Shown here in pieces: positions 1,422 to 31,078 of a stretch of DNA of 32,000 bases; positions within the stretch are counted from its first letter, which is position 1; each line of letters starts with the position of its first letter. This stretch comes from Candidatus Saccharimonadota bacterium. Its GTDB lineage: Bacteria; Bacillota_I; Bacilli_A; Mycoplasmatales; Hepatoplasmataceae. A program made the translations under genes and the position numbers. The stretch is from NCBI RefSeq assembly GCF_000582535.1, contig NZ_CP006932.1:570001-602000 (forward strand). Direction: 5' to 3'. The notes below the pieces were generated by a model. The model did no database searches and was not told the origin of the DNA. It saw nothing but the letters and a program-made list of their open reading frames with translations.

Positions 1422-1563
1422 ATAATTAAATTAGTAAAATTTTATAATGACAAAAAATAGAAAAATCAAAAATTTTCAAGAAAATAGAACAAAAATAGAA
1501 AAAATATAAATATATAAATTTATTATGAAAAGCAAAATACATACTAATTACTTCTATACTATA

Positions 1564-2075
1564 ATTTGAAGAAAATATTAAAATTACAAATAAAGTAAAA
1601 TCATTAATAAAAGATCAAGATATATCATTAGAAGAATAACTTGGAATGATTGAGGAGAAAGAAAATAATAGAAGAAGAAGTTGATCATTTTGCAAAAGTA
1701 AAAGATGCTATTAATATTTATTAATATTATAAATATTGATATGTTAGTTATTCTTGTGGTAATTATTAACGGTTTTTATGTAAAACAACCAAAAATAAAT
1801 ATCTTTTTAATTAAAGAAATGTATGATAAAACAAAAAACCAATAGTATTATATAGGAGAAAAAGAGTTCCTTTAAATCAAATTAATAAAACTTTAAAAAT
1901 AAGAAGAAGAAAAGCCAATTTTGATAGTGAATTTAAAAAAAATTGCGGAATTTTAGAATATATGTATAAAAATCCTGATGCTTTTGATCTAAGAAAAATC
2001 TTTCAAGAAGGAATAAATTAAACAAAAGAAGTTGCAAAATTAAAAATAAAACTTTACAAGCAGAAATAAGAATTA
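1564..2075 (+). pseudogene. decayed duplicate of the 3' half of fba (matches about 678-1200 of the intact gene)
   Basis: Hand alignment: the first ~64 nt are identical to 684-747 of fba, then progressive substitutions, small indels and in-frame TAA/TAG stops; colinear to the fba C-terminus (..YMYKNPDAFDLRKIFQEGIN..). Confidence 0.85.
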
Positions 2076-2331: not shown

Positions 2332-4248
2332 TTAATCATCATTATCTGGATTAGAATAATTAAAATTAAAAATCATATCAATTTTATTATTATAATAATT
2401 TCAAAAATGAACTCCTTTTTTTAATAATTTTAAAATTTCTTGTTTTTCATATTCAAAAACATTTTGATTAAAAATTTTTATATCTTCTGTTTTAGAAATT
2501 TTTAGATATATAAAATTTTTTTTTGAATTTAGAATTTCAAATAAGTTAGAAAAATAATTAAAATAATATATTCCTTTTTTATGAAATTCAAAAGCAATTG
2601 ATTTAATTGCATAGAAATTAGGCATAATTAATTTTAAAGAAGTATAATTAAATCCTTTTAAAGCTTCATTTTCTAATTCTTTTCCAGAATTAGAAATAGA
2701 ATTTGATTCATTTTTTATAGATTTATGATTTAAAAAAGTATCAATTTCATTTAGCGCAGAACTAGCAGCAAGTCCTGCTCATGCCCCGGCCCAAATTCCA
2801 TCTGTAAAAAAAGTTAATAAAGCACCCATTCCTAATCCAATTGTTGGAACTAAATAATCACCTTTACCATTTAAAGTAGAATTTTGTTTATATTTTAAAT
2901 ATTGATCTGTATTTTTTCATAATTGAAAATCTCTATTAATTTCAAGTCAATATCTTTTATCTTCAATTGAAGATAATAATTTTAAATTAATAGTTCAAGA
3001 AAAAGGACTAAAACTATAAAAATAATTTGCAATAATATTATCTTTTTTTAATTTTGGTAAATCTTTTTGAGAAAAAGATAATCCACTACCAAAATTTTCA
3101 TTTTGACCAGATATTTCAAATTGCTTAAAAGGATAAAAATTTAATATTTCTTCATCATTGTAATCTCAATTATCTCCAATATTTTTATTATTTTCAGAAT
3201 AATTAATTATAGAATCTGAATCCATAATTTTTAATTGTCCTATAATTTGTTTTTTATCCATATTATCATCATCATTTTTAAAGTTTTTTAATACTATTCC
3301 AAGAGCTTTACCACTATTTACATCTTCTACGAAACCTACATCTTCATTATTGAAAACCAATCCGCCATAAATATCAGATCATTCTCCAATATTTCCTAAA
3401 GGATAATTATCGACAACCGTAATATTTAATATTTCATTATCTGGTAAATTTCTAGCTCACTCATAAGATATTTTTCCAGATATTTCTGCAATTAAATTAC
3501 CTAATAAATCAAATATTTTCATTTTACTACCAATACTTGTAATAGGACTAAAAATTACATTATAAACCTTATCAATTTGTTGAATAGTATCATTTTCATT
3601 TCTTTTGCTTTTTTTGAAATGTAAAATATCTCCTGATTCTAAATTTTCAATATATTCTTTATTAATAAATATTAATAATCATTTTTGAATACCAAAACCG
3701 TCAGAAATATTTTGGCTTTGAGTAGAATTTAAAATATCATTGAAAAAATATTTTTCAATATCAAAATTATCAGATGGTTGATCATTTTGTAAAATTGAAT
3801 CATATAATAATTCATTATCAGAATTAAATTGTTTTTTAAAATTTATATGACATCTTTCAACTGAAAAATTTGTAAAAATATCAATTAATTTTGATAAATT
3901 ATAAGACTGTAATCAATTAATTTCTAATTCTAATTCTAATTCATTATCACTTATATAATTAATTTTAATTATATTTCAATAAGTTAAATTTTCTTGCAAT
4001 AAATTTTTTTTATTGAAAAAAGGATAATTTTTAACCTGAATTAAATCAATAATTTCAGAATTATTAAAAAAATAATCAAAATTAATTTCAGAATTATTAA
4101 TAATTAATTTAAAACTATTCCATTTCAAATCACTAATTAAAGTATCTGTAATTTGAAATGAATTTAAAGATTTTAGATAATTAGATATCCTCATTCTAAT
4201 TACCCTATTTTTTTGAATTTTTGTATTTTGAAATAATAAAATTTCCAT
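2332..4248 (-). CDS. hypothetical 638-aa protein with a glycine-zipper-like hydrophobic hairpin
   Basis: ORF-track pieces 3976..4248, 3166..3360 and 2401..2625 share one frame; I translated most of the gaps by hand (3601-3978 and 2623-3168) and found only TGA, no TAA/TAG; TAA stop at 2332-2334. Residues encoded at 2752-2850 read VPTIGLGMGALLTFFTDGIWAGAWAGLAASSAL, a local GC-rich patch. No enzymatic motif recognised. Confidence 0.7.
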
Positions 4249-12530: not shown

Positions 12531-12550
12531 TTTATAAAAATAAATTAAAT

Positions 12551-14767: not shown

Positions 14768-14799
14768 AAAAAATAATTACATTCTATTTAGACTTATTT

Positions 14800-15320
14800 A
14801 GATATATTTCAACTTATATACAATTAATATATTAATATTTACAAAAAAGAGATATATTATATGATCTTTTCTTCGGAAAAGAAATAACATTTTTGGAATA
14901 ATATTATTAAAAATAGAAGTTTATGGAAATTATTTATCTTCATCGATTCATTTATTAATTAAATCAAAAAAAATATTAATAATTTTATTTTAGCTATTTC
15001 ATTAGAATTAATTAATGGAAAAGTAAGAAAAATGAATTATCACTTTATTTTTCTGTTCCTATAGCTAATGGATATTAAACATCTCCGAATTATGTTAAAA
15101 AATTAACTTAACTTTTAATTTTTCGATTTATTTAAAGTTTGTTAATTATATAAAACAAAACTGAATAAGATATTTATTATTAAAATTCAACAATAAAGAA
15201 AATAAAAATATAAAACCGAATAATAAACATAGAACAGAAAATTATAAAATATTTCTAAAAAATTTTTGATTAAAAAGAAAAAAATGAATATTTTATACTT
15301 AAAGAAAATAGAGGAATATT
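14800..15320 (+). pseudogene. heavily decayed, internally deleted paralogue of the 7606-8748 DNA methyltransferase
   Basis: Colinear nucleotide matches to the motif I region (TATGATCTTTTCTTCGGAAAAGAAATAACA vs TATGATCCCTTCTCTGGAAGAGGAACAACA), the middle (AATTTTATTTTAGC..; ..AATGGATATT.AA..TCTCC.AATTATGT.AAAAAATTA) and the 3' part (..AAAAATTTTT.ATT.AAA.GAAAAAAAT.); many stops and frameshifts; boundaries approximate. Confidence 0.65.
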
Positions 15321-15583
15321 ATCTTTAAAATTACTTTAAAAATAATAATTTTAAATAAAATTTATGATATTTTAAATTAATTTAATAAGTAATTTTAATA
15401 TTAAATCTAAAATAAATTCATTATAAAAACAATTTTGTTAAAATTACATTTTTCTTTAATCTATAGATATCTTAAATTATTTATATTTAAATTTACAATA
15501 TTTAATTATAATTTATAAATTAATAATTAAATTTTAATTTTCTAAAATATTAATAATATTTTATTTTATTAGATATTAAATTA

Positions 15584-16195
15584 TTATAGTAAATCTAAAG
15601 TTTCTTTAATAGATTCAAAATAAATTGATAAAGTTTCTTTTTGATTTAAATAATTATTTTCAAAATTACTACATTTTTTATTTAAAAATACTTCTCTTAA
15701 CTTATTTCAATCATTACCCTTAATTTCTTTTATTTTATTATTAGAATTTTTAACTAATTCTCATCTTATATTATTAGATTCTTTCCCACGCAAAATTTCT
15801 TTCATGTTTTCTTTATTTGTTCTTATTAAAGCAATATCAAAATGTTTTCTATTATTTTGATCTCTAGAAGAAATTGTAATAACAGATGTTGATAATTTAA
15901 CATTATATTTATATCCTAGATATTTCTTAAATAATTTTTGTACAAATAATTTAAGTTCTGATGTATCAATTTTATTAAATATTGGTGAATCTAAAAGTAA
16001 TTGATAATCAACATCATAAATTCCATTTTTTCTTTGAACAACAAGATTTCTTCTTGCTGATCCTACAATTGCATGATTAAAAGATTTTCCATATTTTGCT
16101 TTAATTTCTTCTTTAATTTTAGGAATTGTATCTTCTAATTCAATTTTATATTCTTTAATTTCTTTTTTACTAACATATCTACATTTCTCATTCAT
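15584..16195 (-). CDS. Pol-beta-superfamily nucleotidyltransferase (203 aa; MNT/SMODS-like)
   Basis: Signature IVGSARRNLVVQRKNGIYDVDYQLLL (hG[GS]-x(n)-DhDh) plus a downstream HFDIALIR (third acidic residue); ORF-track piece 15761..16195 continues through 2 TGA codons to TAA 15584-15586 (translated codon by codon). Confidence 0.6.
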
Positions 16196-16246
16196 AATTA
16201 ATTAATTTAATTCCCCTTTATTTTTAATAATTATAATAATATTATA

Positions 16247-16840
16247 ATGAATCAAATTATTGAAAGAAAAATAAAATTTTTAAAACAAGAATTCTCAAAA
16301 AATAATTATGTATTATTAAAAGATGATATAAAAGATTTAAAAATTCAATTAGAAAGAAAACCTGTACAATTATACAATTTAGCAATAAAATTTTTATTAA
16401 AAAATAATGAGAAAATAAATTATGAAAATATTTCTAAAATCATAATTATTGATATAAGAATACGAGACAATCTTAAAAAAATAATAACTTCCTTAGAAGA
16501 ATATATAAGGGTAAAATATATAGATTTTAAAAAAATAGAATTTAATAATAATTTAATTAAAAAAATTTATACAGAAAATTTAGCAAAAATGATCCAAGAA
16601 TTAAAGGTAGATGAATACAACATAATAAGAGAAATAAGAAATAAAGTAAATCATATTGTTTACCCAATAATATTTGAAGAATTTAAAAATATTTTTAATA
16701 ATTTAATTAAAATAAGAAATTTAGATTTTATTAATAAAAATACTTTTGATAAATATCTAAGATCAATTTTAAATACTAATTACAATATAAATATTAATTT
16801 TATAAATAATTCTTTTAAAAAATTAAAAAATTATATTTAA
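16247..16840 (+). CDS. HEPN-domain protein (197 aa; AbiD/AbiF (Abi_2)-like)
   Basis: R-x4-H motif in IIREIRNKVNHIVYP within a predicted all-helical protein; divergent from the nucleotidyltransferase with a 51-nt gap. Confidence 0.55.
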   Translation: MNQIIERKIKFLKQEFSKNNYVLLKDDIKDLKIQLERKPVQLYNLAIKFLLKNNEKINYENISKIIIIDIRIRDNLKKIITSLEEYIRVKYIDFKKIEFNNNLIKKIYTENLAKMIQELKVDEYNIIREIRNKVNHIVYPIIFEEFKNIFNNLIKIRNLDFINKNTFDKYLRSILNTNYNININFINNSFKKLKNYI

Positions 16841-16886
16841 TCATAAATCTAAAGCAATTTCTATATAATCTAAAAAAGGGATTATT

Positions 16887-18569
16887 ATGGAAAATTTCAT
16901 TGTAAATAAAGGTTACTCAATAAAATTAATAGTAAAAGAAGATGACGAAAAATTAATTGATACAAGTAATGAATTTATTTTAGAATTAGAAAAAGAATAT
17001 TTTAAATATAAAAATAAATTAAAAGAAGAACAAGATAAATTTGAAAAATATAATAACAATAAACATGTTTATTTTTCGCAAGAAAAATTATTAAAAAAAT
17101 CTCCTATTGCAATCATAAATGCTCCTTGAGGTAGTGGAAAAACATATTTTATTGAACAATTTGCAAAAAACTTTATCGATCAAAGAATAGATATTAAAAA
17201 CTTTAAAAATATCATCATTCTTGATATTTTTAAATTTTCTAATTCTAAAAATATTCCTGATGAAATAATGGCTGAATTATTTTTTATTCTTACAAAAATA
17301 TATGATCAAGATAATAAAAATGATTTACTTAATAAATTACATAAATTTGCAATAAAATTTTTTAATGCAACAGTAATTGCTTGAATAAATTATTTTGGTA
17401 AATTTAATTTTGAAAAATTTAAAATTAAAGATCTAAATGAAACAGAAATTATTGTAAATGAAATATCTAAAAGTATTGAACCTACTTTAATAATATTTGA
17501 TAATATTGAAAGAATTGGAAAATATTCTTGAGAGATTTTAAAAGCAATCTTTAAAATCTCACAAATTGATAATTTTTGTTTTATATTACCGATGAATATA
17601 AATAGATTAAATGGAAATGAAAATAAAAAAAATGATGAATATCCAATTGAAAAATATATTGATCTACCAATATTTGAATTTAAACAAGATTATCTTTCTT
17701 TTTTAAAAAATAATGGAGTAGATCAAAAAGAAGCAGTAATTATAAATAATATTTTAAATACAGAAATAGATGGACAAAAATTATCAATAAGAGAAGTAGA
17801 ACAAAGATTCAATAAAAATGATATTTTTAAGGAAAATAATAAATATTTAAAATTAGATAAAATTGTAAAAAATGTATGAGGTTCAGTAACCGAAGCCAAA
17901 AAATACTTAAATGATGAAATTAAAAAATATATTGAAAATCTAAATCAATTAGAAGCAATTTTTAATCAAATAAAATTAAATATTAAAGAAAGAAAATATC
18001 AAAATATTAATTTCGATCAAGATACTAAAAATTATATTAATCAAATTAATAATAATTCTTGAAATCTTAAACATAATTATGAAGAATGAATAATTATGTT
18101 TGATAAAATTTTAAAAGATATTAAAGAATATTTAAATAAATTTGATCTTAAAAAAATTGAATTAATTACAGTAAAAGAAAAATTAAATTCTAATTATTCA
18201 ATTATAAATAATAATTTAAGAATCTTAAATTTAAAATTAGAAAAAGAAATGAGTCTTGAAGATAAAGATAATTTAAAAATTAATCAATTACAAATTGAAA
18301 TTGAAAAGAAAATTAATAATATTGAAATAATCAAAAATCAAATAAATTTAATTAATCAAAAAATATATAATATTGAAGAAGGATACAAAGATCTAGATTA
18401 TAAGAATTTAGAAAAAAGTATTCAAGATTATAAAGAAAAAATAAAAAGTATAAATCAGGATACTGATTTATACTTAATAAATAAATATTATATGTGGGAC
18501 AGAAAATTTGATTATTCACGAGATAATTCAAATTATATTGATTACTTTATTGATTGTTTATTTAGTTAA
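16887..18569 (+). CDS. KAP-family P-loop NTPase, second paralogue (560 aa)
   Basis: Walker A IINAPWGSGKTYF (W is TGA 17127-17129), TLIIFDNIERIG; colinear with 4369-6099 over the NTPase domain; pieces 16887, 17592 and 18096 are in one frame; TAA at 18567-18569. Confidence 0.8.
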
Positions 18570-18742
18570 GTTTATTTATAAAAAATTAACATAATATCTG
18601 TATTTAATAAATTTATAAATAAATACATAATATAAAGTTATCATATCTTTTTAAATTTAAAATAAATAAAAGATATGATTGATAATTTGATAATAATTTA
18701 TCAAGTGTAATAATTAAATATTTATATAAAAGAGGTTAATAA

Positions 18743-19066
18743 ATGGAAAATGATATTTTTTCTAAAATTGAAAAAAAAGCATTATGAAAAAAACAATTTG
18801 GTACTAAATTTACAGGATATGATGTATTTGGCAGATTTGTAAGTCAATGTTGCTCAGATACTAAATGTTGTTCTGCTTCAACTCTTGTTCTTCCTGAAAT
18901 TTATGGAGGTAAAGTTAGTATTGAAAATGGAATTATTTTACACCCCCTTTCAATTAAAGAAAAAGGTGATAAATTATATGGAATTGCAAATAAAAAATTT
19001 TTTCGAATTAAAAAAAATAAAGATGGAACAGCAACAATACTTGTAAAAAATAAAAAAGAAGAATAA
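18743..19066 (+). CDS. hypothetical 107-aa Cys-cluster protein (possible degenerate HNH-like fold)
   Basis: AGAGG RBS; MENDIFSKIEKKALWKKQFG...; CCSDTKCC followed by LVLPEIYGGKVSIENGIILHPLSIKEKGDK, which resembles the HNH layout (C..C / [DH]..P...GG.....N...L......K) but lacks the catalytic His; terminator follows. Confidence 0.45.
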
Positions 19067-19079
19067 ATCTTCTTTTTTT
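19056..19079 (+). terminator. rho-independent terminator
   Basis: AAGAAGA-ATAAA-TCTTCTT hairpin followed by a T run; overlaps the stop codon at 19064-19066. Confidence 0.5.
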
Positions 19080-19195
19080 ATTTAAATATTGAATTTACTA
19101 TATCTAAATTATCTTATTTATCTTTTTCTTTTAAATAATGAATTTAAAATAAATAAGAATTTTAATCTTTTGTCTTTAATTTATAAAAGATTAAA

Positions 19196-19444
19196 ATGAA
19201 AATAAGTTTTATTTCCGCAAAAAAACAATCTGAAAATAATTGAATAAAAAATGAATTAAGTAATGTAAATAGTAAATTAATTAATCTTGATAATAAAGTA
19301 AATACCCTTGACAATAAAGTAAATGCACTCGATAATAAAGTTAATTCTTTAGAGAATAAAATTGAAACAAAGTTTACATTAATTGATCATGATTTAAATG
19401 AAATTAAAATAATTTTAAAAAGCTTGCAAAAAAACAGAAATTAA
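19196..19444 (+). CDS. small coiled-coil protein (82 aa) with heptad LDNKVNx repeats
   Basis: MKISFISAKKQSENNWIKNELSNVNSKLINLDNKVNTLDNKVNALDNKVNSLENKIETKFTLIDHDLNEIKIILKSLQKNRN; one TGA=Trp; paralogue at 20683-20877. Confidence 0.5.
19286..19369 (+). repeat. four tandem 21-nt units (imperfect) encoding the heptads LDNKVNT / LDNKVNA / LDNKVNS / LENKIET
   Basis: CTTGATAATAAAGTAAATACC / CTTGACAATAAAGTAAATGCA / CTCGATAATAAAGTTAATTCT / TTAGAGAATAAAATTGAAACA read directly from the sequence. Confidence 0.8.
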
Positions 19445-22640: not shown

Positions 22641-24827
22641 TTATTTAATTTTTTTCTTGCTCTTTTTTTTAAAATAATAAATTATATATATAGATAAAAC
22701 AAGTAATATTAAAACAAATATTACAATTAAGAGAATTATTCATCAAGAAATAGATTCATTATTATCAGGCGGAATAATAGATTCTGTTTTAAACTGAATA
22801 TCATTATTTTCATTATATTGAATTAAATTATTATCAAGTGTAGTAATATAAAAAGGACTATCATAACTTTTATAATAATCAAAATTATTACAATTAACTT
22901 CAAACTCTAAATAATAATTATTGGAATCATCTATTTTTGTATCAAAAATAACTTCTTTGGAATCTAAATAATTATTATTTTCTAAATTATTATAATCAAT
23001 TGTTTTAGTTTCTATTTGATTATTTAAACTATCATATAATGATATATTTATTGAATTTATTAAATTATAAGGATCAACAAAATCATATGAAACTATTAAA
23101 TCATTATTATCAATTGTGTTTGAAACATTATATACTTTTGGTAAATATTTTCTAAAATTAACATCTTGTTCTCAAATGTGATAATCATTAGATATTTCAA
23201 AATATAAATTATTCTCAAATAATAATTCTAAATCAATAGATGCTTCAAATTCTCCAGCACCTAATCATAAAAGATTATCTACATATTCATTTCATATTAT
23301 TTCATTATTATCTTTATTTATTAAATTTATTGTGTAATTAGCATAATAATCGTTCCTACTGAGAGAATTTCTACCATCAAGTAATTTAAAATAAATATCA
23401 TTTGTTTTTTCATTTTGATCATAAAAACTATCATACTTATAAATAATTGTTGGTTTATCAACTAATACCAAACTATAATCTTGATTAATAGATAATTTAT
23501 CATAATATCAAAAATCAGTCAATTCATTTAAAGTACTACTTCCATTATTTTGATAAATTCCTTTGATCATAGATTCATTATCTGAAAATGAAGTATAATC
23601 TAATGCTATATTTTGATAATAAACATCATCTATTCAATCAGTTTGATAAATACCAGTATAATAAAAATCCTCTGAAAGATAAAATCCTTCACTAGATAAA
23701 TTTCCTACTGCAATATTTTCATTATTATCCAATTGTGATTGAATATCTAAATTTAAATTAAATCCATAAATATTTTCACCATTAAATGAAATTCCTGATG
23801 AAATTGGTGGTAGCAAACTATAAAAAGTATAATTTGCAAAATCATTACTATTTCCATTTACATTTATATTATTAAAAATTACTTCATCTAAATTAATTGA
23901 ATTAGGTACACCTTCATCAGACTGAAAACCATTAGTAACAGAGCCAATAAAGGGACTATAAAAAATTGAAAAATATTTTTCTTGTCCTTCATCTTCAATA
24001 AATAAATTATTACTGAAACTTGAAATAAATTGATTATTTGAAAAATTAATATTATTTATATAAATATCATCAAAATGATATTCTGATAAAATGTATGATT
24101 CAGAATTACCTATTGGAGCAATTATAGTAGAAATAGTTTCATCAAACAAAATAATCTTATTATTAGAAAAATTAATATTTTCAAAAGCACAATTTTCAAA
24201 ATTAGTACCAAATATGTTTTGAGCAATTAAACCAATAGTAGCAATATTAATAATTTTATTATCATAATCTTCTCGATCAATAATATTAGGACTATAAACA
24301 TTAAAAATTAAATTTTGGTAATTTATATTATAAAAATTAACATTTGTTAAAAATGATTCATTTATTTCTCCAAAAGGAAACATAAAATTATCAAAATTTA
24401 AATTGAAAATACTGCAAGAATTAACATCGCTAAAAAAAGAGTAATATCCTAATCCATTATTTGCTTCACTTACTTCAAATGTATTTGTATTAAAAATATC
24501 TGTAACATCACGATTATAAAGTGTATATCCATTTCCTTCTATTATAATTTTATTTAATTCTAATCCTGTTACATCATCATTTTCAGAATCGGAAAAATCA
24601 ACATTGTGTTCTAATTCATATGTTCCTCAATCAGGAACAGATTCTAATTCATATATAAATTGTTGTGAAGATATAGAATTTTCAGAATATTCTGAATAAT
24701 CATTTATTTTATTATTTTGATAATTTATATTATCTTCATTTAAATTTAAATTTTTGTTAGAAAAGATAAATGGTAAAAAAAATAAACCTAAAATTGGTAC
24801 TAAAAATAATTTTAAAAAACTTTTCAT
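22641..24827 (-). CDS. 728-aa surface protein: N-terminal signal/anchor, Asn-rich beta-helix-like repeats, C-terminal TM anchor
   Basis: N-terminus MKSFLKLFLVPILGLFFLPFIFS; recurring [FI]xNINFSNNx[FI]-type units (FENINFSNNKI, INNINFSNNQF, FNNINVNGNSN); C-terminus SWWIILLIVIFVLILLVLSIYIIYYFKKKSKKKIK; pieces 24627..24827 and 23634..24383 are in frame; length is divisible by 3 to TAA 22641-22643. Confidence 0.7.
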
Positions 24828-24849
24828 TTATTTTAATTATAATTAAAAC

Positions 24850-26727
24850 TTAATTTATATAATTCATTTCTAAATTTTCTTTATTATAATGTCTTATACC
24901 ATTTCATGTTTCTTTATTTCTATAATGTCAAAACGTTATTCCATATATAAAATCTTTATCTATTTTTAATTTTATTTGATCAGATAAATCTTTATCAACG
25001 ATATTAAACACCTCTGAAGCTTTTATAAAATTAAATCAATATCTAGAATTTAAATAATCTTTAATATCACTTAAAACAGCTAACTTATATCCATATTGAT
25101 AAAAATAATCTCATAACGATTTTTCTTCATTACGATTCAAACTATATTTATACAATCTCCAACTATATCCTTGTTCTTTATTAAAATAAGATGTAAATAA
25201 ATCTCCACTAATTTTAGAACTTCGATAAGGGATTATTTCATTTTCTAAATTAGTCAAATAATTCTTTGCATCAATTGTTAATTTTGCGCCTCCTTCTAAA
25301 GTTTTTTTAATACCGTCTCACATTATTTTTGGTTTTTTTTCAATATATCCAGTTGCTATTTCAGCCATTCCAATACTAATTTCAACAGAATCCAATAAAA
25401 ATCCTGATCTTGTCTTAGATTTAGATTTTTCAAATATTTCATAAAATGATTCTGTTCGCTGTGGATATTCATTATCAACAACAACAGAATATTGATTAGA
25501 ATTTCAATGTTTACTATAATCTGTGTAATCTTCATTAGAAAAATTTTCAAAATAAATATTACAATTATGAGTTCAAGGATTTAAAGAAAAAGTAAAATTT
25601 AATTTTATTTTTTGTTTTTCTTTATTTGAAATTCCTAATTGTAAAGGATCATATTCAATGGAACTATTACCATTTATTGTTTCAATAATATAATATTGAA
25701 AAGGATAAGCAAATAATTTATGTTCAAAATTAATATCTTTATCATTTAAATATGAACTAGGAAAATTAAAAAAATTATGATCTAAATTAATTTCATCAGT
25801 TGATCCCATACTGCTTTTTAAAATAAATTCTTTTATTAAAAATTTATTTTCTGTAATTGATAAATATTCATCATTTCCTTCAATTATTTTAATAACTAAA
25901 TTACCAACTTCATCTTTCGTTAATGAAAATTTATCTGGAAATATTGGTGATTCTAAAATATAAAATCCCGCAAATTCTTCTTTGCTTAAATCATTTTGAA
26001 AGGTTTTTTGTACACTAACTCCATTTATAATAGTGATGTTATTTTTTTCTTTATTAATTGGATATAAATAAAAATCATAATTAAGAGAAAAATTTCCAAT
26101 TTTTGCAATAGGATTACTAGATTTAAAAACTCCTATAATTCAAATAATTGAATTATTAATTACATCATTTCCATATTTAAAATTTGTAGATATTTCTTCT
26201 ACATTACTCAATTTTAAGGAAAAATCTTCTCGAACTTGTAAAGATTGATTATTTCTATCTAAATGTGCTCTTTCTATAAAAGTTTCACCTTTTAAAATCG
26301 TTGAAATTGGATAAGTAATATAAATATCTAAATTTAAAATTAAAATAAAATTATTATTATCTAAATTTTTAACTTCTGAAATTGAATAAAATTTAAATAA
26401 ATTATTTTCATAAATGATAATATTATTTAAATTTAAAATTAATTCTCTTTTTTTATTTATATCTTCTTCAAAAAAATAATCATTAATATTTATTTTTAAC
26501 TCGATATTTTCAATATTATTTATTCTAATATTTTTTTCAATTCAATAACCGTTTTCTAAATTTAAAAAATCAATTTGATCATCAAAAAGAACATAATTAA
26601 CAAATTCATTTCTCTTTGCAATTGATTCTTCTTTTGAATTTCCCGGAAAATCAATTACATTTTTATTTAGATTAGTATCATCAGATTCTCAATTAGTATT
26701 ATTTTTTGGTATTAAAATTTTTATCAT
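24850..26727 (-). CDS. phi29 gp9-like tail-knob (distal tube) protein paralogue, copy 2 (625 aa)
   Basis: ATG 26725-26727; piece 25573..25809 is in frame; motif blocks FKFYSISEV..LNLDIYITYPI..ETFIERAHL, LFAYPFQYYIIETINGN, WDYFYQYGYKL, YGITFWHY parallel phi29 gp9 as I recall it; TAA at 24850-24852. Confidence 0.6.
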
Positions 26728-26741
26728 TTTATTCTTCTTTC

Positions 26742-28991
26742 TTATTCTATTCTTACTCATTTAACAGTAAATAAACCAGCAGCTAAGTTATATTCTTGTG
26801 AAGAATTTTTTAAAGAATATGGAGCTAATGTATTTGCTTCATTATGAGATTTTCCAATTCTTATAATATATCCTTCTTGATCATATCCATCAATATATCC
26901 CACAACATCAGAACTATCATTTTTCCCTTCTGATTTATTTCTTGTTCCAACATAACAATTTGCTAATTTATGTTTATGATTTATAACTTCTTTATTTCAT
27001 ATTTGATTAGGTAAATTATTAACTGCTTGTACAGTAGCCATTCCTTCTTTAAATTCTTTATTATGTTCATGCAATCTTTTTCAAACACCTAAATATTTAT
27101 TATTTTTATTTGGATCATAAGTACTTAAAAATTCTTTAATTGTACCAATATGTTCATCTAATTGATTTATTTGTATAAAATCCATTTCTAAGTTTTCAAA
27201 ATCATAATTTTTGATTCCTTTTCAATCATTCTTATTACGATAATGTCAAAAAGTTATTCCATTTTTAAAATCTTCATTAATTATTAATTTTGTTTTTTTA
27301 GATAAATTTTTATCTACTAAATTAAATATTTTATCTATTTTTAAAAAATTAAATCAATACCTTGAATTTAAATATTTTTGAATATTTTCTAATTGATTTA
27401 ATTTATATCCATATTGATAAAAATAATCAAATAAATGCTTTCTCTCTAAATTATTTAAACTATACTTATTCAATTTTCAACTAAATCCTTTTGCATTATT
27501 TAAATATGAAGTTAGTAAATCACCATTAATTTTAGAAGTATTATTTTTTTCTAAATTATTAATATAATTTTGATGTTTTCTTTTTTCAATAATATTATTA
27601 GATATAGATGATCTTGAAGGAGATAAAAATTCTGAATATTGTTCTGCTTTAATGTCTTTTAATATATCTCCATAAGATAGTGTTCTTTTAGGATATTCAT
27701 TATCACTTACTGTGCAATATTGATTAATATTTCATGTTGCATCAATCTCAAATTTATTTAAGGCATTTTCAAAATAAATACTACTGCTATGAGTTCAAGG
27801 ATTTAAAGAAAAATTAAATCTTAAATAATCTTGATGATTTTCACTATTTCAAAGCAATTGTAATGGATCATATTTTATTGAATTAATTCCATTTGTTGTT
27901 TCAATTTTATAATACTCAAAGGGGTAGGCATATAATTTATGCTCGAATAAAATATTTTTTGGATTTTTATATGAATTTGCTTGTTCAAAAAAATTATGAA
28001 TATTTATTTTATCACTTCATCCCATTTCTTTATTTAAATCAAAATTTTTAATGAGCAATTTTCCATCTTCTAATTTAAAATTATTTGGATTTTTATTTGA
28101 CAAAGTAATAATGGTATTATTATTAACATCTTTTTCAATATTAATAGCATCAGGATATAATGGTGATTCTAAAATATAAAAACTAATAAATTCATCACTA
28201 TTTGTATCATTAAATAAAGTATTGTTTACATTTATATTATTTATTAAAATACTATTTCCATCTTCATTATTATAACTATCATAAAATTTAATTATTGGAT
28301 ATAAATAAAAATTAAAATTTAAAGGTAATGTACCAATTTTTGTTAATGTTTCTTTTTCTTCTTCTAAATTTATTTTCTCGATTCCAATGATTCAAATAAT
28401 TGAATTATTTTTATAATTATTATGATACTTAAAATTAGTTTCTACTTCTTCTACTTTGCTTAATTTAATATCAAAATCTTCTCTTATTTGAAGTTTACTT
28501 ACATCATTTCTTTTTAAATGTGCACGATCAATAAATGTTTCTCCACTTAAAATTGTTGAAATTGGATAAGTAAGATAAATATCTAGATTAATATTTGCAA
28601 TAAAATTATCATTATCTAAAATTTCAATTTTAGAAATTGCATAAAATTTAAATAAATTATTTTGATAGATAATAATATTATTTAAATTTAAAATTCGTTC
28701 TCTTTTTTTATCTATATCTTCTTCTAACAAATAATCATTTATATCTAATTTTATTTTACAATCAAAAATATCATTTATAATGATTTCTTTTTCTACTCAG
28801 TATCCATTTTCTAAATTTAAAAAATCAATTTGATCATCAAAAAGGACATAATTAACAAATTCATTTCGTTTTGCAATTGATTGTTCTTTTGTTTTTCCTG
28901 GAAAACTAATTACATGTTTTTGATCATAAGTATCTAAATTTTTATTAGTTGATCAGTTTGTATTATTTTTAGGAATTAAAATCTTTACCAT
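26742..28991 (-). CDS. phi29 gp9-like tail-knob protein paralogue, copy 1, fused in frame to a ~125-aa HxH C-terminal module (749 aa)
   Basis: ATG 28989-28991 after an AAGGAAAG RBS; piece 28392..28730 is in frame; colinear with copy 2 up to ..NGITFWHYRNKNDWKGIKNYDFENLE, then continues without a stop into MDFIQINQLDEHIGTIKEF...NHKHKLANCYVGTRNKSEG...FTVKWVRIE; TAA at 26742-26744. Confidence 0.6.
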
Positions 28992-29010
28992 CTATTCTTT
29001 CCTTTTTAAA

Positions 29011-29652
29011 CTATTCAACTCGAACTCATTTAATCGTAAGTAATCCTGCTGCAAAATTATTTTCTTCTGCAGAATTTGATAATGAATAAGGAATAAGATT
29101 TCCTACTTCATCATGTGATTGGCCAATTCTTATGATATTTCCTTCTGCATCATAACCATCAATAAAACCAACAACATCAGAATTATCATTAGTTCCTTCT
29201 GATTTATTTCTTGAACCAACATAGCGATCTGCTAATCTATGTGTATGTCCTTTTACTGCTCCATTTGTAACTATATTTGTCTGTCCTGAAATTGTTTGTA
29301 ATGTTGTCATTCCTTCAATAAAACTAGGATTATATTCATGTAATTTTTTTCAAACCCCTAAATATTTATCATTTAAATTTGGATCATAATCATTAATAAA
29401 TTCTTTAATTGTTCCTATTGCTTCATCAATTAAAGATATTTCATCTGATAATAATTGATATTTTTTTCCATCTTTTGAAAAATAAATATCTTTATGATTA
29501 TTTTTTACGAATTTTAAAAAATATTTTGTTTTATTATTTGATAATTTAAAAATATCATTTTTTTGATCACTATTTTCAATACTTTCTATTTCTCAACCTG
29601 AAAAATAAATTTTTATTTTGTTATTAATAATGTCTTCTGTTTTTTCTTCCAT
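29011..29652 (-). CDS. 213-aa protein carrying the stand-alone version of the HxH C-terminal module
   Basis: ATG 29650-29652; piece 29026..29310 is in frame; ...DEAIGTIKEFINDYDPNLNDKYLGVWKKLHEYN...GHTHRLADRYVGSRNKSEGTNDNSDVVGFIDGYDAEGNIIRIGQSHDE...LTIKWVRVE; TAG at 29011-29013. Confidence 0.6.
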
Positions 29653-29772
29653 TTAATTTAATAACCTTTCCTTTTTATTTACTTATAATTAAAATTTATC
29701 AAATAAACAAAAAGAATTTAAATATTTTATAAGTTGTATAGACAACTTCTAAATAATAAATTATTTAGAAAT

Positions 29773-29799
29773 AAAAAAAGAGCCTTATAAAAAGACTCT
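29773..29799 (-). terminator. rho-independent terminator of the tRNA operon
   Basis: Minus strand: AGAGTCTT-TTTAT-AAGGCTCT hairpin followed by T7; 37 nt downstream of tRNA-Phe. Confidence 0.6.
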
Positions 29800-29835
29800 T
29801 TATTACCATTTAAAAAATTTAATTAATTTTTTAAA

Positions 29836-29911
29836 TGGTGGTTCAGGACGGAATCGAACCGCCGACACAGGGAGCTTCAATCCCTTGCTCTACCGACTGA
29901 GCTACTGAACC
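29836..29911 (-). tRNA. trnF: tRNA-Phe (GAA)
   Basis: Hand-folded cloverleaf GGTTCAG..CTGAACC; anticodon loop TTGAAGC; TTCGATT T-loop; CCA encoded. Confidence 0.92.
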
Positions 29912-29990
29912 TGATTTTTTTATTATTCCGGTAGGATTAATTAAACCTACGTTTTTCTCAAAACGGCAAATAACGAAATAATTTATTTAA

Positions 29991-30066
29991 TGGCGGTCCT
30001 GACGGGATTTGAACCCGCGATCTCCTCTGTGACAGAGAGGCATGATGACCACTTCACTACAGGACC
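29991..30066 (-). tRNA. trnD: tRNA-Asp (GTC)
   Basis: Acceptor GGTCCTG/CAGGACC; anticodon loop CTGTCAC; CCA encoded. Confidence 0.92.
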
Positions 30067-30143
<77 letters not shown>

Positions 30144-30152
30144 ATAAATAAA

Positions 30153-30245
30153 TGGTGGAGATGGAGGGATTCGAACCCCCGCACGACTTTCGCCGTCTCT
30201 CGGTTTTCAAGACCGACCCCTTCAACCAGACTTGGGTACATCTCC
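30153..30245 (-). tRNA. trnS: tRNA-Ser (TGA)
   Basis: Anticodon loop CTTGAAA, long variable arm, 93 nt, CCA encoded. Confidence 0.9.
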
Positions 30246-30254
30246 ATTTATAAT

Positions 30255-30331
30255 TGGTGGTCCGTGCTGGACTTGAACCAGCGACCAACCGGTTATGAGC
30301 CGGTGGCTCTAACCAACTGAGCTAACGGACC
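30255..30331 (-). tRNA. tRNA with CAT anticodon, most likely tRNA-Ile2 (lysidine-modified)
   Basis: Clear cloverleaf, loop CTCATAA. The Ile2 assignment rests on its position in the conserved Met-Ile-Ser-fMet-Asp-Phe order and an Ile-like D-arm (TAGCTCAGTTGGTTAGAGC); the tRNA call itself is secure. Confidence 0.75.
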
Positions 30332-30336
30332 TTATT

Positions 30337-30413
30337 TGGTAGCGGAAGAGGGACTTGAACCCCCGACCCATTGAATATGAACCAATTGCTCTAACCAACT
30401 GAGCTATTCCGCC
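30337..30413 (-). tRNA. trnM: elongator tRNA-Met (CAT)
   Basis: Acceptor GGCGGAA/TTCCGCT; anticodon loop TTCATAT; CCA encoded; the Met versus Ile2 assignment is by cluster position. Confidence 0.8.
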
Positions 30414-30420
30414 AATAATA

Positions 30421-30496
30421 TGGTGGAGCGAACGAGACTCGAACTCGCGACCCCATGCGTGCAAGGCATGTGCTCTACCAACTGAGCTATCACCCC
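30421..30496 (-). tRNA. trnA: tRNA-Ala (TGC)
   Basis: G3:U70 identity pair (GGGGTGA/TCGCTCC); anticodon loop CTTGCAC. Confidence 0.92.
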
Positions 30497-30501
30497 ATAA
30501 A

Positions 30502-30578
30502 TGGTCGGAAAGACAAGACTTGAACTTGCGACCCCCGCGTCCCAAACGCGGTGCTCTGCCAAACTGAGCTACTTTCCG
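30502..30578 (-). tRNA. trnP: tRNA-Pro (TGG)
   Basis: Acceptor CGGAAAG/CTTTCCG; anticodon loop TTTGGGA. Confidence 0.92.
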
Positions 30579-30582
30579 ATAA

Positions 30583-30659
30583 TGGCGCGCCCGATAGGAG
30601 TCGAACCCACAACCCTCTGATCCGTAGTCAGATACTCTATCCAGTTGAGCTACAGGCGC
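30583..30659 (-). tRNA. trnR: tRNA-Arg (ACG)
   Basis: Acceptor GCGCCTG/CGGGCGC; anticodon loop CTACGGA. Confidence 0.92.
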
Positions 30660-30667
30660 ATTATTAA

Positions 30668-30752
30668 TGGTGCGGGTGAAGGGACTTGAACCCTTACGTC
30701 CGAAGACACTAGATCCTAAGTCTAGCGTGTCTGCCTATTCCACCACACCCGC
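30668..30752 (-). tRNA. trnL: tRNA-Leu (TAG)
   Basis: Anticodon loop CTTAGGA, long variable arm, 85 nt. Confidence 0.9.
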
Positions 30753-30755
30753 ACA

Positions 30756-30831
30756 TGGTGCCGTTGATAGGAATCGAACCTACGACCCACTGATTACAAG
30801 TCAGTTGCTCTGCCTGCTGAGCTACAACGGC
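30756..30831 (-). tRNA. trnT: tRNA-Thr (TGT)
   Basis: Acceptor GCCGTTG/CAACGGC; anticodon loop CTTGTAA. Confidence 0.92.
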
Positions 30832-30841
30832 TGATGATCTT

Positions 30842-30917
30842 TGGTGGGGCATATAGGACTTGAACCTATGACCTCCTGCTTGTAAGGCAGATGCTCTCCC
30901 AACTGAGCTAATACCCC
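30842..30917 (-). tRNA. trnV: tRNA-Val (TAC)
   Basis: Acceptor GGGGTAT/ATGCCCC; anticodon loop CTTACAA. Confidence 0.92.
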
Positions 30918-30924
30918 GAAAAAA

Positions 30925-31000
30925 TGGTGACCCATACGGGATTTGAACCCGTGCATGCTAGGATGAAAACCTAGTGTGTTAACCGCTTCACCAATGGGCC
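30925..31000 (-). tRNA. trnE: tRNA-Glu (TTC)
   Basis: Acceptor GGCCCAT/ATGGGTC; anticodon loop TTTTCAT. Confidence 0.92.
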
Positions 31001-31003
31001 TAA

Positions 31004-31078
31004 TGGCGCTCCGGAGAGGATTCGAACCTCCGACCAACTGGTTAACAGCCAGCTGCTCTACCACTGAGCTACCAGAGC
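31004..31078 (-). tRNA. trnN: tRNA-Asn (GTT)
   Basis: Acceptor GCTCTGG/CCGGAGC; anticodon loop CTGTTAA. Confidence 0.92.

What the first reader, a model, noticed from the sequence alone, without database searches (positions are those of the whole stretch)
24850..28991. Two tandem phi29-gp9-like tail-knob (distal tube) genes in a wall-less bacterium, with no capsid, portal, polymerase or integrase nearby
Seen: two adjacent paralogues (749 and 625 aa) share about 84 nt near their 5' ends with only 4 mismatches (28807-28890 vs 26552-26635). Their conserved blocks line up, as I recall the sequence, with phi29 gp9. The N-terminal block FKFYAISKIE..NINLDIYLTYPI..ETFIDRAHL compares with WFYAFVTELE..HFEIDVLQTWMF..ESFIVREHV. 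The middle block L(F/Y)AYPF(Q/E)YY.IET.NG compares with MMYPYCVTEITDFKGN. The C-terminal block FDYFYQYGYKLN...NGITFWHY compares with FFHKYGYKINR...NGITLWHT. Copy 2 has an extra amphipathic/hydrophobic insert (..SGFLLDSVEISIGMAEIATGYI.., about 25300-25430) at roughly the position where gp9 carries its membrane-active loop; copy 1 has a different, polar segment there. Established: phi29 gp9 forms the hexameric tail tube end, and its loops insert into membranes to form the DNA-ejection pore. Inference: this is either the remnant of a Picovirinae-like prophage next to the tRNA cluster or a domesticated, duplicated membrane-penetrating module (tailocin-like or effector-delivery). Neither has been described for Mollicutes to my knowledge.
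Basis: partly seen in the sequence, partly recalled or inferred. Interest (0 to 1): 0.7.

Follow-up and report, generated by a model that had tools for sequence, protein, structure and literature searches.

The report
Domesticated phage tail-knob genes in Hepatoplasma
A tiny, supposedly phage-free symbiont of woodlice keeps two (in this strain three) intact copies of the protein that small phi29-like phages use to puncture cell membranes. The copies sit in a conserved host operon with no other phage genes, have lost or rewritten the puncturing loop, and differ unusually strongly between strains, so they look like captured phage parts put to a new, still unknown use.

Summary
The window comes from Candidatus Hepatoplasma crinochetorum strain Av (genetic code 4). 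B (749 aa, 26742-28991) and C (625/636 aa, 24850-26760) are full-length, very divergent members of the phi29 gp9 tail-knob family. This is shown by profile searches and by a confident AlphaFold model whose only significant PDB matches are tail knobs.

Their nearest relatives are gp9 genes on about 10-14 kb code-4 phi29-like phage contigs. In Hepatoplasma, B and C lie in a conserved four-gene operon (A-B-C-D) between the tRNA cluster and ychF in two species, with no other phage gene nearby. All four genes are intact, with dN/dS of 0.3-0.6.

Between two strains whose flanks are 99.5-100% identical, the B-C block is only 72-95% identical. gp9's hydrophobic membrane loop is deleted in B and has become highly charged in C. 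The N-termini of B and C are homogenised by gene conversion. B carries an orphan 140-aa C-terminal domain that it shares with A.

A third, distant gp9-like gene (E, 2332-4248) keeps a hydrophobic loop and sits next to a KAP NTPase in an inserted cassette at a defence island.

Verdict: these are exapted tail-knob genes, not a prophage remnant. Their function is unknown; I favour a role in conflict with phages, at low confidence.

The parts
26742..28991 (-). Gene B (749 aa): gp9-type tail-knob core (aa 1-606, nt 27174-28991) fused to an orphan 140-aa C-terminal 'tip' domain (aa 607-749, nt 26742-27173)
   Evidence: Table-4 ORF. 165 bits against a profile of 48 non-Hepatoplasma relatives, in two pieces that skip the loop positions. 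phrog_2248 (the gp9 family) matches aa 472-588 at E=3.5e-11. The C-terminal domain is 62% identical to A.
24850..26760 (-). Gene C (636-aa ORF; probable true start at 26727 gives 625 aa = X271_00560): full-length gp9-type tail knob
   Evidence: 186 bits, profile positions 15-596. AlphaFold model pLDDT 78.5, pTM 0.74. Foldseek: phi29 gp9 E=4e-20, then Andhra and C1 tail knobs, next hit E=0.15.
25273..25422 (-). C's counterpart of the gp9 membrane-active L-loop: normal length but 24-29% charged, longest uncharged run 6-10 residues; the fastest-evolving part of the gene
   Evidence: Loop comparison. dN is about equal to dS in codons 447-496. Disordered in the model, residues 427-508 of the 625-aa form.
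27522..27674 (-). B's loop site: about 30 aa shorter than in gp9 or C, 26-34% charged, no hydrophobic stretch
   Evidence: The profile match skips positions 429-461. dN is about equal to dS in codons 450-499.
28542..28991 (-).
   Evidence: Within-genome B/C identity exceeds ortholog identity in this tract, independently in both species. 4 mismatches in 84 nt.
26278..26727 (-). N-terminal ~150 codons of C, partner of the gene-conversion tract; contains 26552-26635
29011..29652 (-). Gene A (213 aa): first gene of the operon; aa 71-213 are the same orphan domain as B's C-terminus (invariant H-x-H motif); no signal peptide
   Evidence: Homologues only in Hepatoplasma. No PDB, phage, viral-contig or metagenome match.
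22641..24827 (-). Gene D (728 aa): last gene of the operon; N-terminal signal-like hydrophobic segment and C-terminal transmembrane anchor followed by a Lys-rich tail; probable surface protein of unknown family
   Evidence: Sequence. No Pfam, PHROG, PADLOC or PDB hit. Conserved after C in all genomes and duplicated in AP027132.
24750..29090 (.). Hypervariable block between two H. crinochetorum strains: 72-95% mosaic DNA identity, against 99.5-100% on both sides
   Evidence: dS 0.30-0.32 in B and C against 0-0.08 in the flanks.
29724..29801 (-). Terminator-like hairpin (29801-29777) ending the tRNA cluster, followed by a promoter-like site (29753-29724) upstream of A; consensus matches only
   Evidence: Gaps between A, B, C and D are 14-22 nt.
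29836..31078 (-). Cluster of 14 tRNA genes directly upstream of the operon
2332..4248 (-). Gene E (638 aa, X271_00542): third, very divergent gp9-family gene. It keeps a Gly/Ala-rich hydrophobic loop, is specific to this strain, and was acquired separately.
   Evidence: 46.6 bits, full length, profile positions 39-589. Loop features. Its only relative is P0168 (38% identity) on a code-4 10-kb contig. Separate lineage in the tree.
1552..2064 (+). Degraded duplicate of the 3' end of fba (86% identical to 666-1187). It marks cassette insertion next to E; further fba fragments lie at 6189-6251 and 10929-11062.

Best explanation
B and C are host-captured (exapted) copies of the tail-knob (distal tube) gene of a small phi29-like phage that infects code-4 Mollicutes.

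Shown here:
- One knob gene entered the Hepatoplasma lineage and was duplicated before H. crinochetorum and H. scabrum split.
- It became fixed, together with gene A and the membrane-anchored gene D, as a four-gene operon between the tRNA cluster and ychF, with every other phage gene absent.
- The knob fold and both terminal domains are kept under purifying selection.
- The hydrophobic L-loop that lets gp9 penetrate membranes is deleted in B and recoded to a charged segment in C.
- B gained a 140-aa C-terminal domain shared with A.
- The N-terminal domains of B and C are kept alike by gene conversion.
- The B-C block is exchanged or diversified between strains far faster than its surroundings.

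Inferred mechanism (low confidence, about 0.3): B and C still form a gp9-like ring. They may form it as B/C heterodimers, because the phi29 knob is a trimer of dimers and the N-termini of B and C are homogenised. The ring can no longer form a membrane pore. Because the proteins are cytoplasmic and keep the conserved terminal domains found in contemporary code-4 phage knobs, I think they most likely act in conflict with those phages. They would co-assemble with, or cap, nascent phage tails as poison subunits that lack the ejection loop, so that progeny virions are non-infectious. This would explain both the arms-race-like diversification and the loss of the loop.

My confidence by layer: gp9-family identity about 0.95; exaptation rather than prophage remnant about 0.8; the anti-phage poison-subunit mechanism about 0.3. 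The overall confidence figure refers to the main claim (exapted tail-knob genes under selection), discounted for the uncertain mechanism.
For: Family identity:
- The A2 profile hits 5FB4 (phi29 gp9) at E=5e-95 over its full length.
- 40 of 56 recruited relatives match PF20934 and 36 of 56 match PF16838.
- An independent profile of 48 relatives scores C at 186 bits and B at 165 bits over the full length.
- The Foldseek top nine hits are all tail knobs.

Phage origin:
- The nearest relative, P0010, lies on a 9.8-kb code-4 contig with connector, Gp16 ATPase and protein-primed PolB. P0022 lies on a 14-kb contig with PolB and connector.
- The tree places the B/C clade among these phage genes.

Not a prophage:
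- Only gp9 is shared between the phage contigs and the window.
- The locus is syntenic and flanked by housekeeping genes in AP027132 and AP027133.
- There is no att-like repeat.
- The genome paper reports no phage genes (PMC3942034).

Selection:
- All four ORFs are intact in every genome seen (the window, L004, L014, L015).
- dN/dS is 0.33-0.51 within the species and 0.35-0.62 between species, against 0.07-0.28 for housekeeping genes.

Diversification: a sharply bounded mosaic block, with dS 4-5 times that of the flanks.

Loop loss: read against the known role of the L-loop (PMC6542822).

Gene conversion.

Phage pressure on the host: CRISPR-Cas9 and restriction-modification systems are retained (PMC10928387).
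Against: - No expression, protein or assembly data exist.
- The roles of A and D are not explained by the poison-subunit idea. D's presence in the operon points instead to the cell surface.
- PADLOC finds no defence-model hit for A, B, C, D or E.
- I know of no precedent for a tail-knob decoy.
- The phage contigs are not shown to infect Hepatoplasma.
- I could not scan the whole genome, so phage genes elsewhere on the chromosome are excluded only by published keyword-based annotation.
- The AlphaFold model used an alignment containing true gp9-family members, so the fold match is not fully independent of the sequence evidence.
- The Nei-Gojobori dN/dS values are rough in an 18-20% GC genome.
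- Elevated dS in the block shows recombination or old alleles, not necessarily positive selection.
Confidence: 0.55

Rival explanations
1. Cell-surface or host-interaction complex. A, B and C assemble with the membrane-anchored D into a knob-like structure on the symbiont surface, for adhesion to isopod midgut microvilli or for contact-dependent interaction. Its variability is driven by host immunity or by competition between strains.
For: D has a signal-like N-terminus and a C-terminal anchor and always follows C in the operon. D is the fastest-evolving gene between species (44% aa identity) and is duplicated in one strain. Hepatoplasma is an ectosymbiont for which adhesins are expected (PMC10928387). 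Strong variation between strains is typical of surface antigens.
Against: A, B and C have no signal peptide or lipobox and no export route is evident. D is nearly identical (98%) between the two strains in which B and C differ by 20-25%, so D and B/C do not co-vary. The membrane-active loop is lost in B and C.
Confidence: 0.25
2. Decaying remnant of a phi29-like prophage or integrated phage fragment next to the tRNA cluster, not yet erased and without function.
For: The genes are of phage origin. They lie next to a tRNA cluster, a common integration site. They evolve faster than housekeeping genes.
Against: All ORFs are intact in four or more genomes after dN of about 0.3 and saturated dS. dN/dS is below 1. 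The four-gene synteny is kept across species in a 0.6-Mb genome that tends to lose DNA. No other phage gene or fragment is in the window and there is no att repeat. phi29-like phages replicate as linear, protein-primed DNA and are not known to integrate (my own knowledge).
Confidence: 0.07
3. Part of a dispersed but still active phage-like element or satellite. The knob genes are used to build particles together with structural genes encoded elsewhere in the genome or supplied by a helper phage (tail piracy).
For: The conserved terminal domains resemble those of contemporary code-4 phage knobs. B's extra C-terminal domain, shared with A, could be a receptor-binding tip that retargets particles. 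The rapid diversification resembles that of receptor-binding proteins.
Against: A knob without the L-loop could not form the ejection pore (PMC6542822). No packaging, capsid or replication genes were detected nearby. The genome is reported to be free of phage genes (PMC3942034). The tip domain is absent from all phage data searched.
Confidence: 0.08
4. This concerns gene E only. E together with the divergently transcribed KAP-family NTPase forms a mobile two-gene abortive-infection module. On sensing infection, the gp9-like protein inserts its hydrophobic loop into the cell's own membrane.
For: E keeps a gp9-like Gly/Ala-rich hydrophobic loop. E and the KAP NTPase lie between two fragments of the fba 3' end, which marks them as an inserted cassette. 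They sit at the edge of a defence island holding restriction-modification genes, a CD-NTase-like cyclase and a PD-Lambda-5-like gene. The same gene pair recurs on two other contigs. E is strain-specific.
Against: PADLOC has no hit for E or for this KAP NTPase. The association rests on one locus type. E may simply be a recent phage fragment, since its only relative is on a probable phage contig.
Confidence: 0.15

Closest known systems
Bacillus phage phi29 gp9 tail knob / distal tube protein (PDB 5FB4, 5FB5, 5FEI; Pfam PF16838 + PF20934; phrog_2248). The knobs of Staphylococcus phage Andhra (8EGS) and Streptococcus phage C1 gp12 (4EO2) belong to the same family.
   Same: Same length class (about 600 aa core), full-length profile homology and the same predicted fold. 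The conserved blocks at the N-terminus, at the E-x-K-L-x-x-Y-P motif and at the C-terminal YGYK...GIT.WH motif are all present.
   Different: Only about 13-15% identity in the structural alignment. The hydrophobic L-loop is deleted (B) or charged (C). B has an extra 140-aa domain. The genes are chromosomal, duplicated and not accompanied by any other phage gene. They fall below current Pfam-A thresholds.
gp9-like genes of uncultured code-4 phi29-like phage contigs (for example JACSEL010000076.1 = L002 and SRR19658988_19338 = L003)
   Same: They are the nearest relatives: P0010 at 25% identity over 668 aa, E=3e-29. They share the N-terminus MK(V/I)LI.K.N..W, use code 4 and have low GC.
   Different: The phage copies are single and keep a Gly/Ala-rich loop with few charges. 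They lie between connector, packaging ATPase and PolB genes. They lack the A-type tip domain.
Domesticated phage-tail machines: R- and F-type tailocins, extracellular contractile injection systems (PVC, AFP, MAC), the type VI secretion system and gene transfer agents (reviewed in PMC8987985; otherwise my own knowledge)
   Same: Phage structural genes retained by the host under purifying selection and inherited vertically.
   Different: Those machines derive from long-tailed phages and keep whole multi-gene tail or particle modules (tube, sheath, baseplate). Here only the knob gene of a short-tailed phage is kept, and its membrane-penetrating element has been removed. No tailocin components are present.
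Host- or satellite-encoded homologues of viral structural proteins that interfere with assembly (for example mouse Fv1 derived from gag, and capsid or scaffold homologues of phage-inducible chromosomal islands). This comparison is from my own knowledge and was not tested here.
   Same: The proposed logic is the same: a captured structural subunit that evolves fast and poisons or redirects virus assembly.
   Different: No such role is known for a tail-knob protein, and no functional evidence exists here.

Membership tests
phi29 gp9 tail-knob (distal tube) family | Direct match to the curated family models (Pfam PF16838 Caud_tail_N, PF20934 phi29_gp9_C; phrog_2248) | tested here: inconclusive
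   phrog_2248 matches only the C-terminal ~115 aa of B (E=3.5e-11) and of two orthologues, and does not match C or E. The current Pfam-A copy gives no hit for B, C or their orthologues. Precomputed PF20934 hits are on record for four orthologues.
phi29 gp9 tail-knob (distal tube) family | Full-length sequence homology to gp9 | tested here: met
   A profile of relatives recruited by the Hepatoplasma-only profile hits 5FB4 at E=5e-95 over residues 9-596. A profile of 48 relatives that excludes Hepatoplasma scores C at 186 bits (positions 15-596), B at 165 bits and E at 47 bits. The direct Hepatoplasma profile against gp9 gives 33 bits over gp9 residues 324-589.
phi29 gp9 tail-knob (distal tube) family | Tail-knob fold | tested here: met
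   The AlphaFold model of C has pLDDT 78.5 and pTM 0.74. In Foldseek the top nine hits are gp9, Andhra and C1 knobs (E 4e-20 to 9e-14, TM 0.47-0.62) and the next hit is at E=0.15. Caveat: the alignment used for the model contained true family members. B and E were not modelled.
phi29 gp9 tail-knob (distal tube) family | Long hydrophobic, poorly charged L-loop that forms the membrane pore | tested here: not met
   gp9 is 9% charged with a 53-residue uncharged run. C is 24-29% charged with runs of 6-10. B has a ~30-aa deletion, is 26-34% charged and has a maximum hydropathy of 0.05 or less. E does meet this feature (18% charged, 18-residue run, hydropathy 1.32).
phi29 gp9 tail-knob (distal tube) family | Hexameric tube (trimer of dimers) attached to a lower collar | not testable with these tools
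   No multimer prediction or experiment was available. No lower-collar gene is in the window.
phi29 gp9 tail-knob (distal tube) family | Encoded within a phi29-like phage genome (connector, lower collar, protein-primed PolB, terminal protein, Gp16 ATPase) | tested here: not met
   None of these genes is in the window or in the flanks of the orthologous loci. They are present on the relatives' contigs.
Prophage or prophage remnant | Contiguous phage genes, an integrase, att repeats and signs of decay | tested here: not met
   No other phage gene or fragment, no integrase, no att-like tRNA repeat. The ORFs are intact with dN/dS below 1 across species.
Tailocin / contractile injection system | Tube, sheath or baseplate genes and a lysis or release module | tested here: not met
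   The Pfam and PHROG scans of the A-B-C-D cassette and E, and the Pfam scans of the remaining window proteins, find none.
Known anti-phage defence systems (PADLOC-DB 2.0) | Match to a defence-system protein model | tested here: not met
   No hit for A, B, C, D or E. Neighbours of E do hit: a CD-NTase-like cyclase at 8e-9 and PD-Lambda-5_A at 7e-5.

The most novel reading that the evidence does not exclude
Hepatoplasma has turned the tail-knob protein of its own phi29-like phages into an immune factor. B and C would be loop-less poison subunits that co-assemble into nascent phage tails and yield particles unable to eject DNA, evolving in an arms race through recombination and gene conversion. 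Gene E, paired with a KAP NTPase, would be a second, independently captured knob that still has its loop and is used as a membrane-perforating abortive-infection effector. This would be the first bacterial defence built from a captured short-tailed-phage structural protein.
Probability: 0.2. Interest if true: 0.85.

Novelty: new variant of a known kind. Interest (0 to 1): 0.62.

Why it matters
Ca. Hepatoplasma has a streamlined 0.6-Mb genome that its describers reported as free of phage and other mobile-element genes. Yet about 1.4% of it is devoted to an operon built around two captured phage tail-knob genes. These genes are conserved across species and are by far the most variable part of the locus compared between two strains, the 8-kb stretch from the tRNA-Phe gene to the gene beyond D.

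It matters for four reasons:
- It adds a short-tailed-phage part to the list of phage structures that bacteria have domesticated. Until now that list consisted of long-tailed-phage tail modules and whole particles.
- It shows that uncultured code-4 phi29-like phages exist and have left a heritable mark on Mollicute symbionts.
- It offers a natural experiment on the gp9 L-loop, with deleted, charged and intact versions in a single genome.
- If the genes act against phages or on the animal host, they are a new kind of conflict or symbiosis factor that standard annotation (Pfam, PADLOC) misses.

Tried and rejected
- **Table-11 ORF calling:** it fragments all genes, so I used table 4 instead.
- **Single-sequence searches:** Pfam and PDB searches with B found nothing. 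The Hepatoplasma-only profile against the PDB, with default filters, missed gp9. gp9 was recovered with filters off and with a broader profile.
- **First AlphaFold run:** with 9 close sequences it was unusable (pLDDT 46).
- **Tail-collar idea:** the A/B C-terminal domain reminded me of phage tail-collar or fibre-tip domains (IGTIKEF...W, H-x-H). A profile search of the PDB, tblastn against 50,697 phage records, an HMM search of all fetched contigs, and scans of the viral and metagenome collections all found nothing. The resemblance is unsupported and the domain stays an orphan.
- **Mycoplasma phage P1:** tested as a possible source and rejected, because none of its proteins matches the knob profiles.
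- **D as a phage appendage:** D has no similarity to any protein of the phage contigs, nor to Pfam, PHROG, PADLOC or PDB entries.
- **L011 as a phage:** PHROG annotation of L011's proteins gave nothing, so 'phage' for L011 is only likely.
- **Scan of 185,579 species genomes:** it found only six small MAG contigs. It did not recover Hepatoplasma itself, probably because Trp is encoded by TGA, so it cannot be read as proof that other chromosomes lack the gene.

Full report
**Origin of the window and the observation.** The window has about 20% GC and its genes are readable only under genetic code 4. Table 11 fragments them, while table 4 gives long ORFs. Homology searches identify the organism as Candidatus Hepatoplasma crinochetorum strain Av, a Mollicute symbiont of terrestrial isopods. 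Gene C is the annotated X271_00560 and gene E is X271_00542.

On the minus strand, just downstream of a cluster of 14 tRNA genes, lie four closely spaced genes:
- A, 213 aa, 29011-29652
- B, 749 aa, 26742-28991
- C, 636 aa as an ORF and 625 aa from the conserved start at 26727, 24850-26760
- D, 728 aa, 22641-24827

B and C are 55% identical over 640 aa.

**Are they gp9-like?** Single-sequence tests give only partial answers. Pfam-A finds nothing. phrog_2248, which real phi29 gp9 matches at 1e-196, matches only B residues 472-588 (E=3.5e-11). BLASTP against real gp9, taken from EU771092, aligns only the last ~105-115 residues at 29% identity.

A profile of nine Hepatoplasma sequences, searched against 1.84 billion representative proteins, found 451 relatives at E≤0.001 and 133 at E≤1e-10. 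Most are 600-750 aa and several align end to end. Of 56 aligned sequences (four Hepatoplasma, 52 recruited relatives), 40 match Pfam phi29_gp9_C and 36 match Caud_tail_N. Their joint profile hits the solved gp9 structure 5FB4 at E=5e-95 over residues 9-596, and also hits the knobs of phages C1 and Andhra.

To avoid circularity I built a profile from 48 relatives, leaving out Hepatoplasma and its four nearest kin. With filters off it scores gp9 at 333 bits, C at 186 bits (profile positions 15-596) and B at 165 bits. B's match comes in two pieces that skip positions 429-461. The Hepatoplasma-only profile also aligns directly to gp9 residues 324-589 (33 bits), including the EHKLFAYPF/ESKLMMYPY block.

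An AlphaFold model of C made with the 56-sequence alignment is confident (pLDDT 78.5, pTM 0.74) and is disordered only at residues 401-411 and 427-508. Its only significant PDB matches are the nine tail-knob chains of phi29, Andhra and C1 (E 4e-20 to 9e-14, TM 0.47-0.62); the next hit has E=0.15.

**A third copy.** The 638-aa ORF at 2332-4248 (gene E) also matches the independent profile over its full length (46.6 bits, positions 39-589). By BLAST it is barely related to B and C.

**Where the genes came from.**
- The closest relative of B and C outside Hepatoplasma is P0010 (25% identity over 668 aa, E=3e-29). It lies on a 9.8-kb contig with a connector, a Gp16-type packaging ATPase and a protein-primed B-family polymerase.
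- P0022 lies on a 14-kb contig with a polymerase and a connector.
- Both contigs, and the 10-kb contig that holds E's only relative (38% identity), are readable only in code 4 and have 23-32% GC. They are therefore phi29-like phages of Mollicute-like hosts, although L011 could not be annotated.
- A distance tree places the B/C clade among these phage sequences. It shows that the B/C duplication predates the split of H. crinochetorum and H. scabrum, and it puts E with L011 on a separate branch. There were thus at least two independent captures.
- Mycoplasma phage P1 has no detectable gp9 relative.

**Not a prophage.**
- BLASTP and code-4 tblastn of all 286 ORFs from the phage contigs, phi29 and phage P1 against the window hit only the three knob genes.
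- Pfam scans of the other window proteins show housekeeping genes (aldolase, YchF, TrkA) and defence genes (two KAP NTPases, three DNA methylases). PADLOC adds a CD-NTase-like cyclase and a PD-Lambda-5-like protein.
- In a second H. crinochetorum genome (AP027132) and in Ca. H. scabrum (AP027133), the A-B-C-D unit sits at the same place, between trkH/trkA plus the tRNAs and ychF. An independent 7.2-kb metagenomic contig also carries A-B-C-D.
- No repeat of the tRNA-Phe gene's 3' end flanks the cassette.
- The Av genome paper states that no phage, plasmid, transposon or insertion-sequence gene is detectable, but that rests on keyword searches (PMC3942034). The 2024 comparative paper does not mention prophages (PMC10928387).
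- I could not scan the whole chromosome.

**Selection and diversification.** Between Av and H. scabrum, amino-acid identity and dN/dS are as follows.

| Gene | aa identity | dN/dS |
|---|---|---|
| TrkA | 85% | 0.22 |
| YchF | 75% | 0.28 |
| A | 67% | 0.35 |
| B | 62% | 0.41 |
| C | 59% | 0.57 |
| D | 44% | 0.62 |

All ORFs are intact. For a 0.6-Mb reduced genome this argues for function.

Between Av and AP027132 the picture is unusual. The flanking genes, A and D are 98-100% identical in protein, but B is 80.5% and C is 75.2% identical. dS is 0.30-0.32 in B and C against 0-0.08 around them, and their dN/dS is 0.33 and 0.51. A DNA alignment shows 99.5-100% identity outside window positions ~24750-29090 and a mosaic of 72-95% inside. 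The other strain also has an extra 2.2-kb D-like gene inside that block. The block has therefore been replaced or scrambled by recombination. Because dS is also elevated, faster protein evolution alone cannot explain it.

**Internal features.**
1. *The L-loop.* In phi29 the hydrophobic L-loops leave the knob on genome release and form a hydrophobic helix barrel that breaches the membrane (PMC6542822). At the homologous positions:
   - gp9 is 9% charged, with a 53-residue uncharged run.
   - The phage relatives are 12-18% charged.
   - E is 18% charged, with an 18-residue uncharged run and high hydropathy.
   - C keeps the length but is 24-29% charged, with uncharged runs of 10 or fewer.
   - B lacks about 30 residues, is 26-34% charged and has no hydrophobic stretch.
   
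   This region is also the fastest-evolving one, with dN about equal to dS.
2. *N-terminal homogenisation.* Over roughly the first 150 codons, B and C within one genome are more alike (up to 98% in H. scabrum) than orthologues between species (71-83%). Gene conversion therefore acts independently in each lineage, and it explains the 84-nt observation.
3. *The extra domain.* B's last 143 residues are 62% identical to residues 71-213 of A. The domain has many invariant positions, including an H-x-H motif, and the A and B copies co-vary within each species. It has no detectable relative anywhere else.
4. *D.* It has a signal-like N-terminus and a C-terminal membrane anchor and belongs to no known family.
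5. *Operon signals.* A terminator-like hairpin follows the tRNA cluster, a promoter-like site precedes A, no terminator-like site lies between the four genes, and the gaps between them are 14-22 nt. This fits one operon, but these are consensus matches only.

**Gene E and its surroundings.** The 3' 520 nt of the aldolase gene is duplicated in degraded form at 1552-2064 (86% identity). Shorter fragments of the same gene end lie at 6189-6251 and 10929-11062. This pattern is best read as repeated cassette insertion at the end of fba. E and the divergently oriented KAP NTPase (4369-6099) form one such ~4-kb cassette. The same arrangement occurs on two other contigs. E is absent from the other Hepatoplasma genomes.

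**Interpretation.**
- Shown: B, C and E are gp9-family proteins of phage origin. B and C are old, duplicated, conserved in synteny, intact and under purifying selection. They have no phage neighbours. Their membrane loop is lost or recoded. Their sequences are exchanged between strains and between paralogues at a high rate.
- Inferred: they are exapted host genes.
- Mechanism (speculative): the proteins lack export signals. They keep the terminal domains shared with present-day code-4 phage knobs while losing the one element needed for DNA ejection. The diversification also looks like an arms race. For these reasons I favour, at about 0.3, a role as poison subunits that spoil tail assembly of infecting phi29-like phages.
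- Main rival (about 0.25): a surface or host-interaction complex with D. The operon structure supports it; the lack of export signals, and the fact that D does not co-vary with B and C between strains, argue against it.
- A decaying remnant (about 0.07) and a dispersed active element (about 0.08) are unlikely.

**Novelty.** I found no paper linking tail knobs to Mollicutes or to domestication. Known domesticated phage-tail machines come from long-tailed phages and keep whole modules. I therefore rate this as a new variant of a known kind: host capture of phage structural genes. All conclusions are computational, and expression and assembly remain untested.

Noticed in passing
window 1552-2064, 6189-6251, 10929-11062 (compare fba at 352-1209): Three degraded copies of the 3' end of the fructose-bisphosphate aldolase gene (86%, 72% and 81% identity). 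They suggest repeated insertion of gene cassettes at the end of fba, with each insertion leaving a partial target duplication.
   Followed up: partly
window 2332-6099: A third, very divergent gp9-family gene (E, X271_00542) with an intact hydrophobic loop is paired head-to-head with a KAP-family P-loop NTPase inside one inserted cassette. It is absent from the other Hepatoplasma genomes. The same pair appears on two other metagenomic contigs.
   Followed up: partly
window 4369-19444: A defence-island-like region. It holds two paralogous KAP NTPases (4369-6099, 16887-18569), an N6/N4 methylase (7606-8748), a 706-aa PD-Lambda-5_A-like protein (8753-10873), two C5 cytosine methylases (12551-14678) next to a 491-aa gene that may be a restriction enzyme (11055-12530), and a 203-aa CD-NTase-like cyclase (15584-16195) beside an unknown 197-aa gene.
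   Followed up: partly
L004 14178-16373 (AP027132), between the orthologues of C and D: The second H. crinochetorum strain has an extra D-like gene (731 aa, 64.5% identical to D) that is missing from the window strain, so the copy number of the surface-protein gene varies between strains.
   Followed up: partly
window 26742-27173 and 29011-29439: An orphan ~140-aa domain with an invariant H-x-H motif is shared by B's C-terminus and A. The two copies co-evolve within each species. I found no relative in the PDB, phage records, viral contigs or metagenome contigs.
   Followed up: yes
L002 (JACSEL010000076.1), L003 (SRR19658988_19338), L011 (ERR14656796_60): Contigs of 10-14 kb and 23-32% GC that are readable only in genetic code 4. 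L002 and L003 have a phi29-like gene content (connector, protein-primed PolB, gp9-like knob; L002 also has a Gp16 ATPase). They are probable uncultured phi29-like phages of Mollicutes, a group I did not find described in the literature searched.
   Followed up: partly
window 19196-19444: An 82-aa coiled-coil ORF with tandem 'LDNKVN' heptad-like repeats and a weak sub-threshold match to Pfam DUF16 (PF01519); from my own knowledge, not tested here, DUF16 is a family known mainly from Mycoplasma.
   Followed up: no
window 29836-31078: A compact cluster of 14 tRNA genes, including three tRNA-Met (CAT), with spacers of 0-9 nt between most genes and one 79-nt gap before tRNA-Phe. A terminator-like hairpin at 29801-29777 separates it from the A-B-C-D operon.
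   Followed up: no
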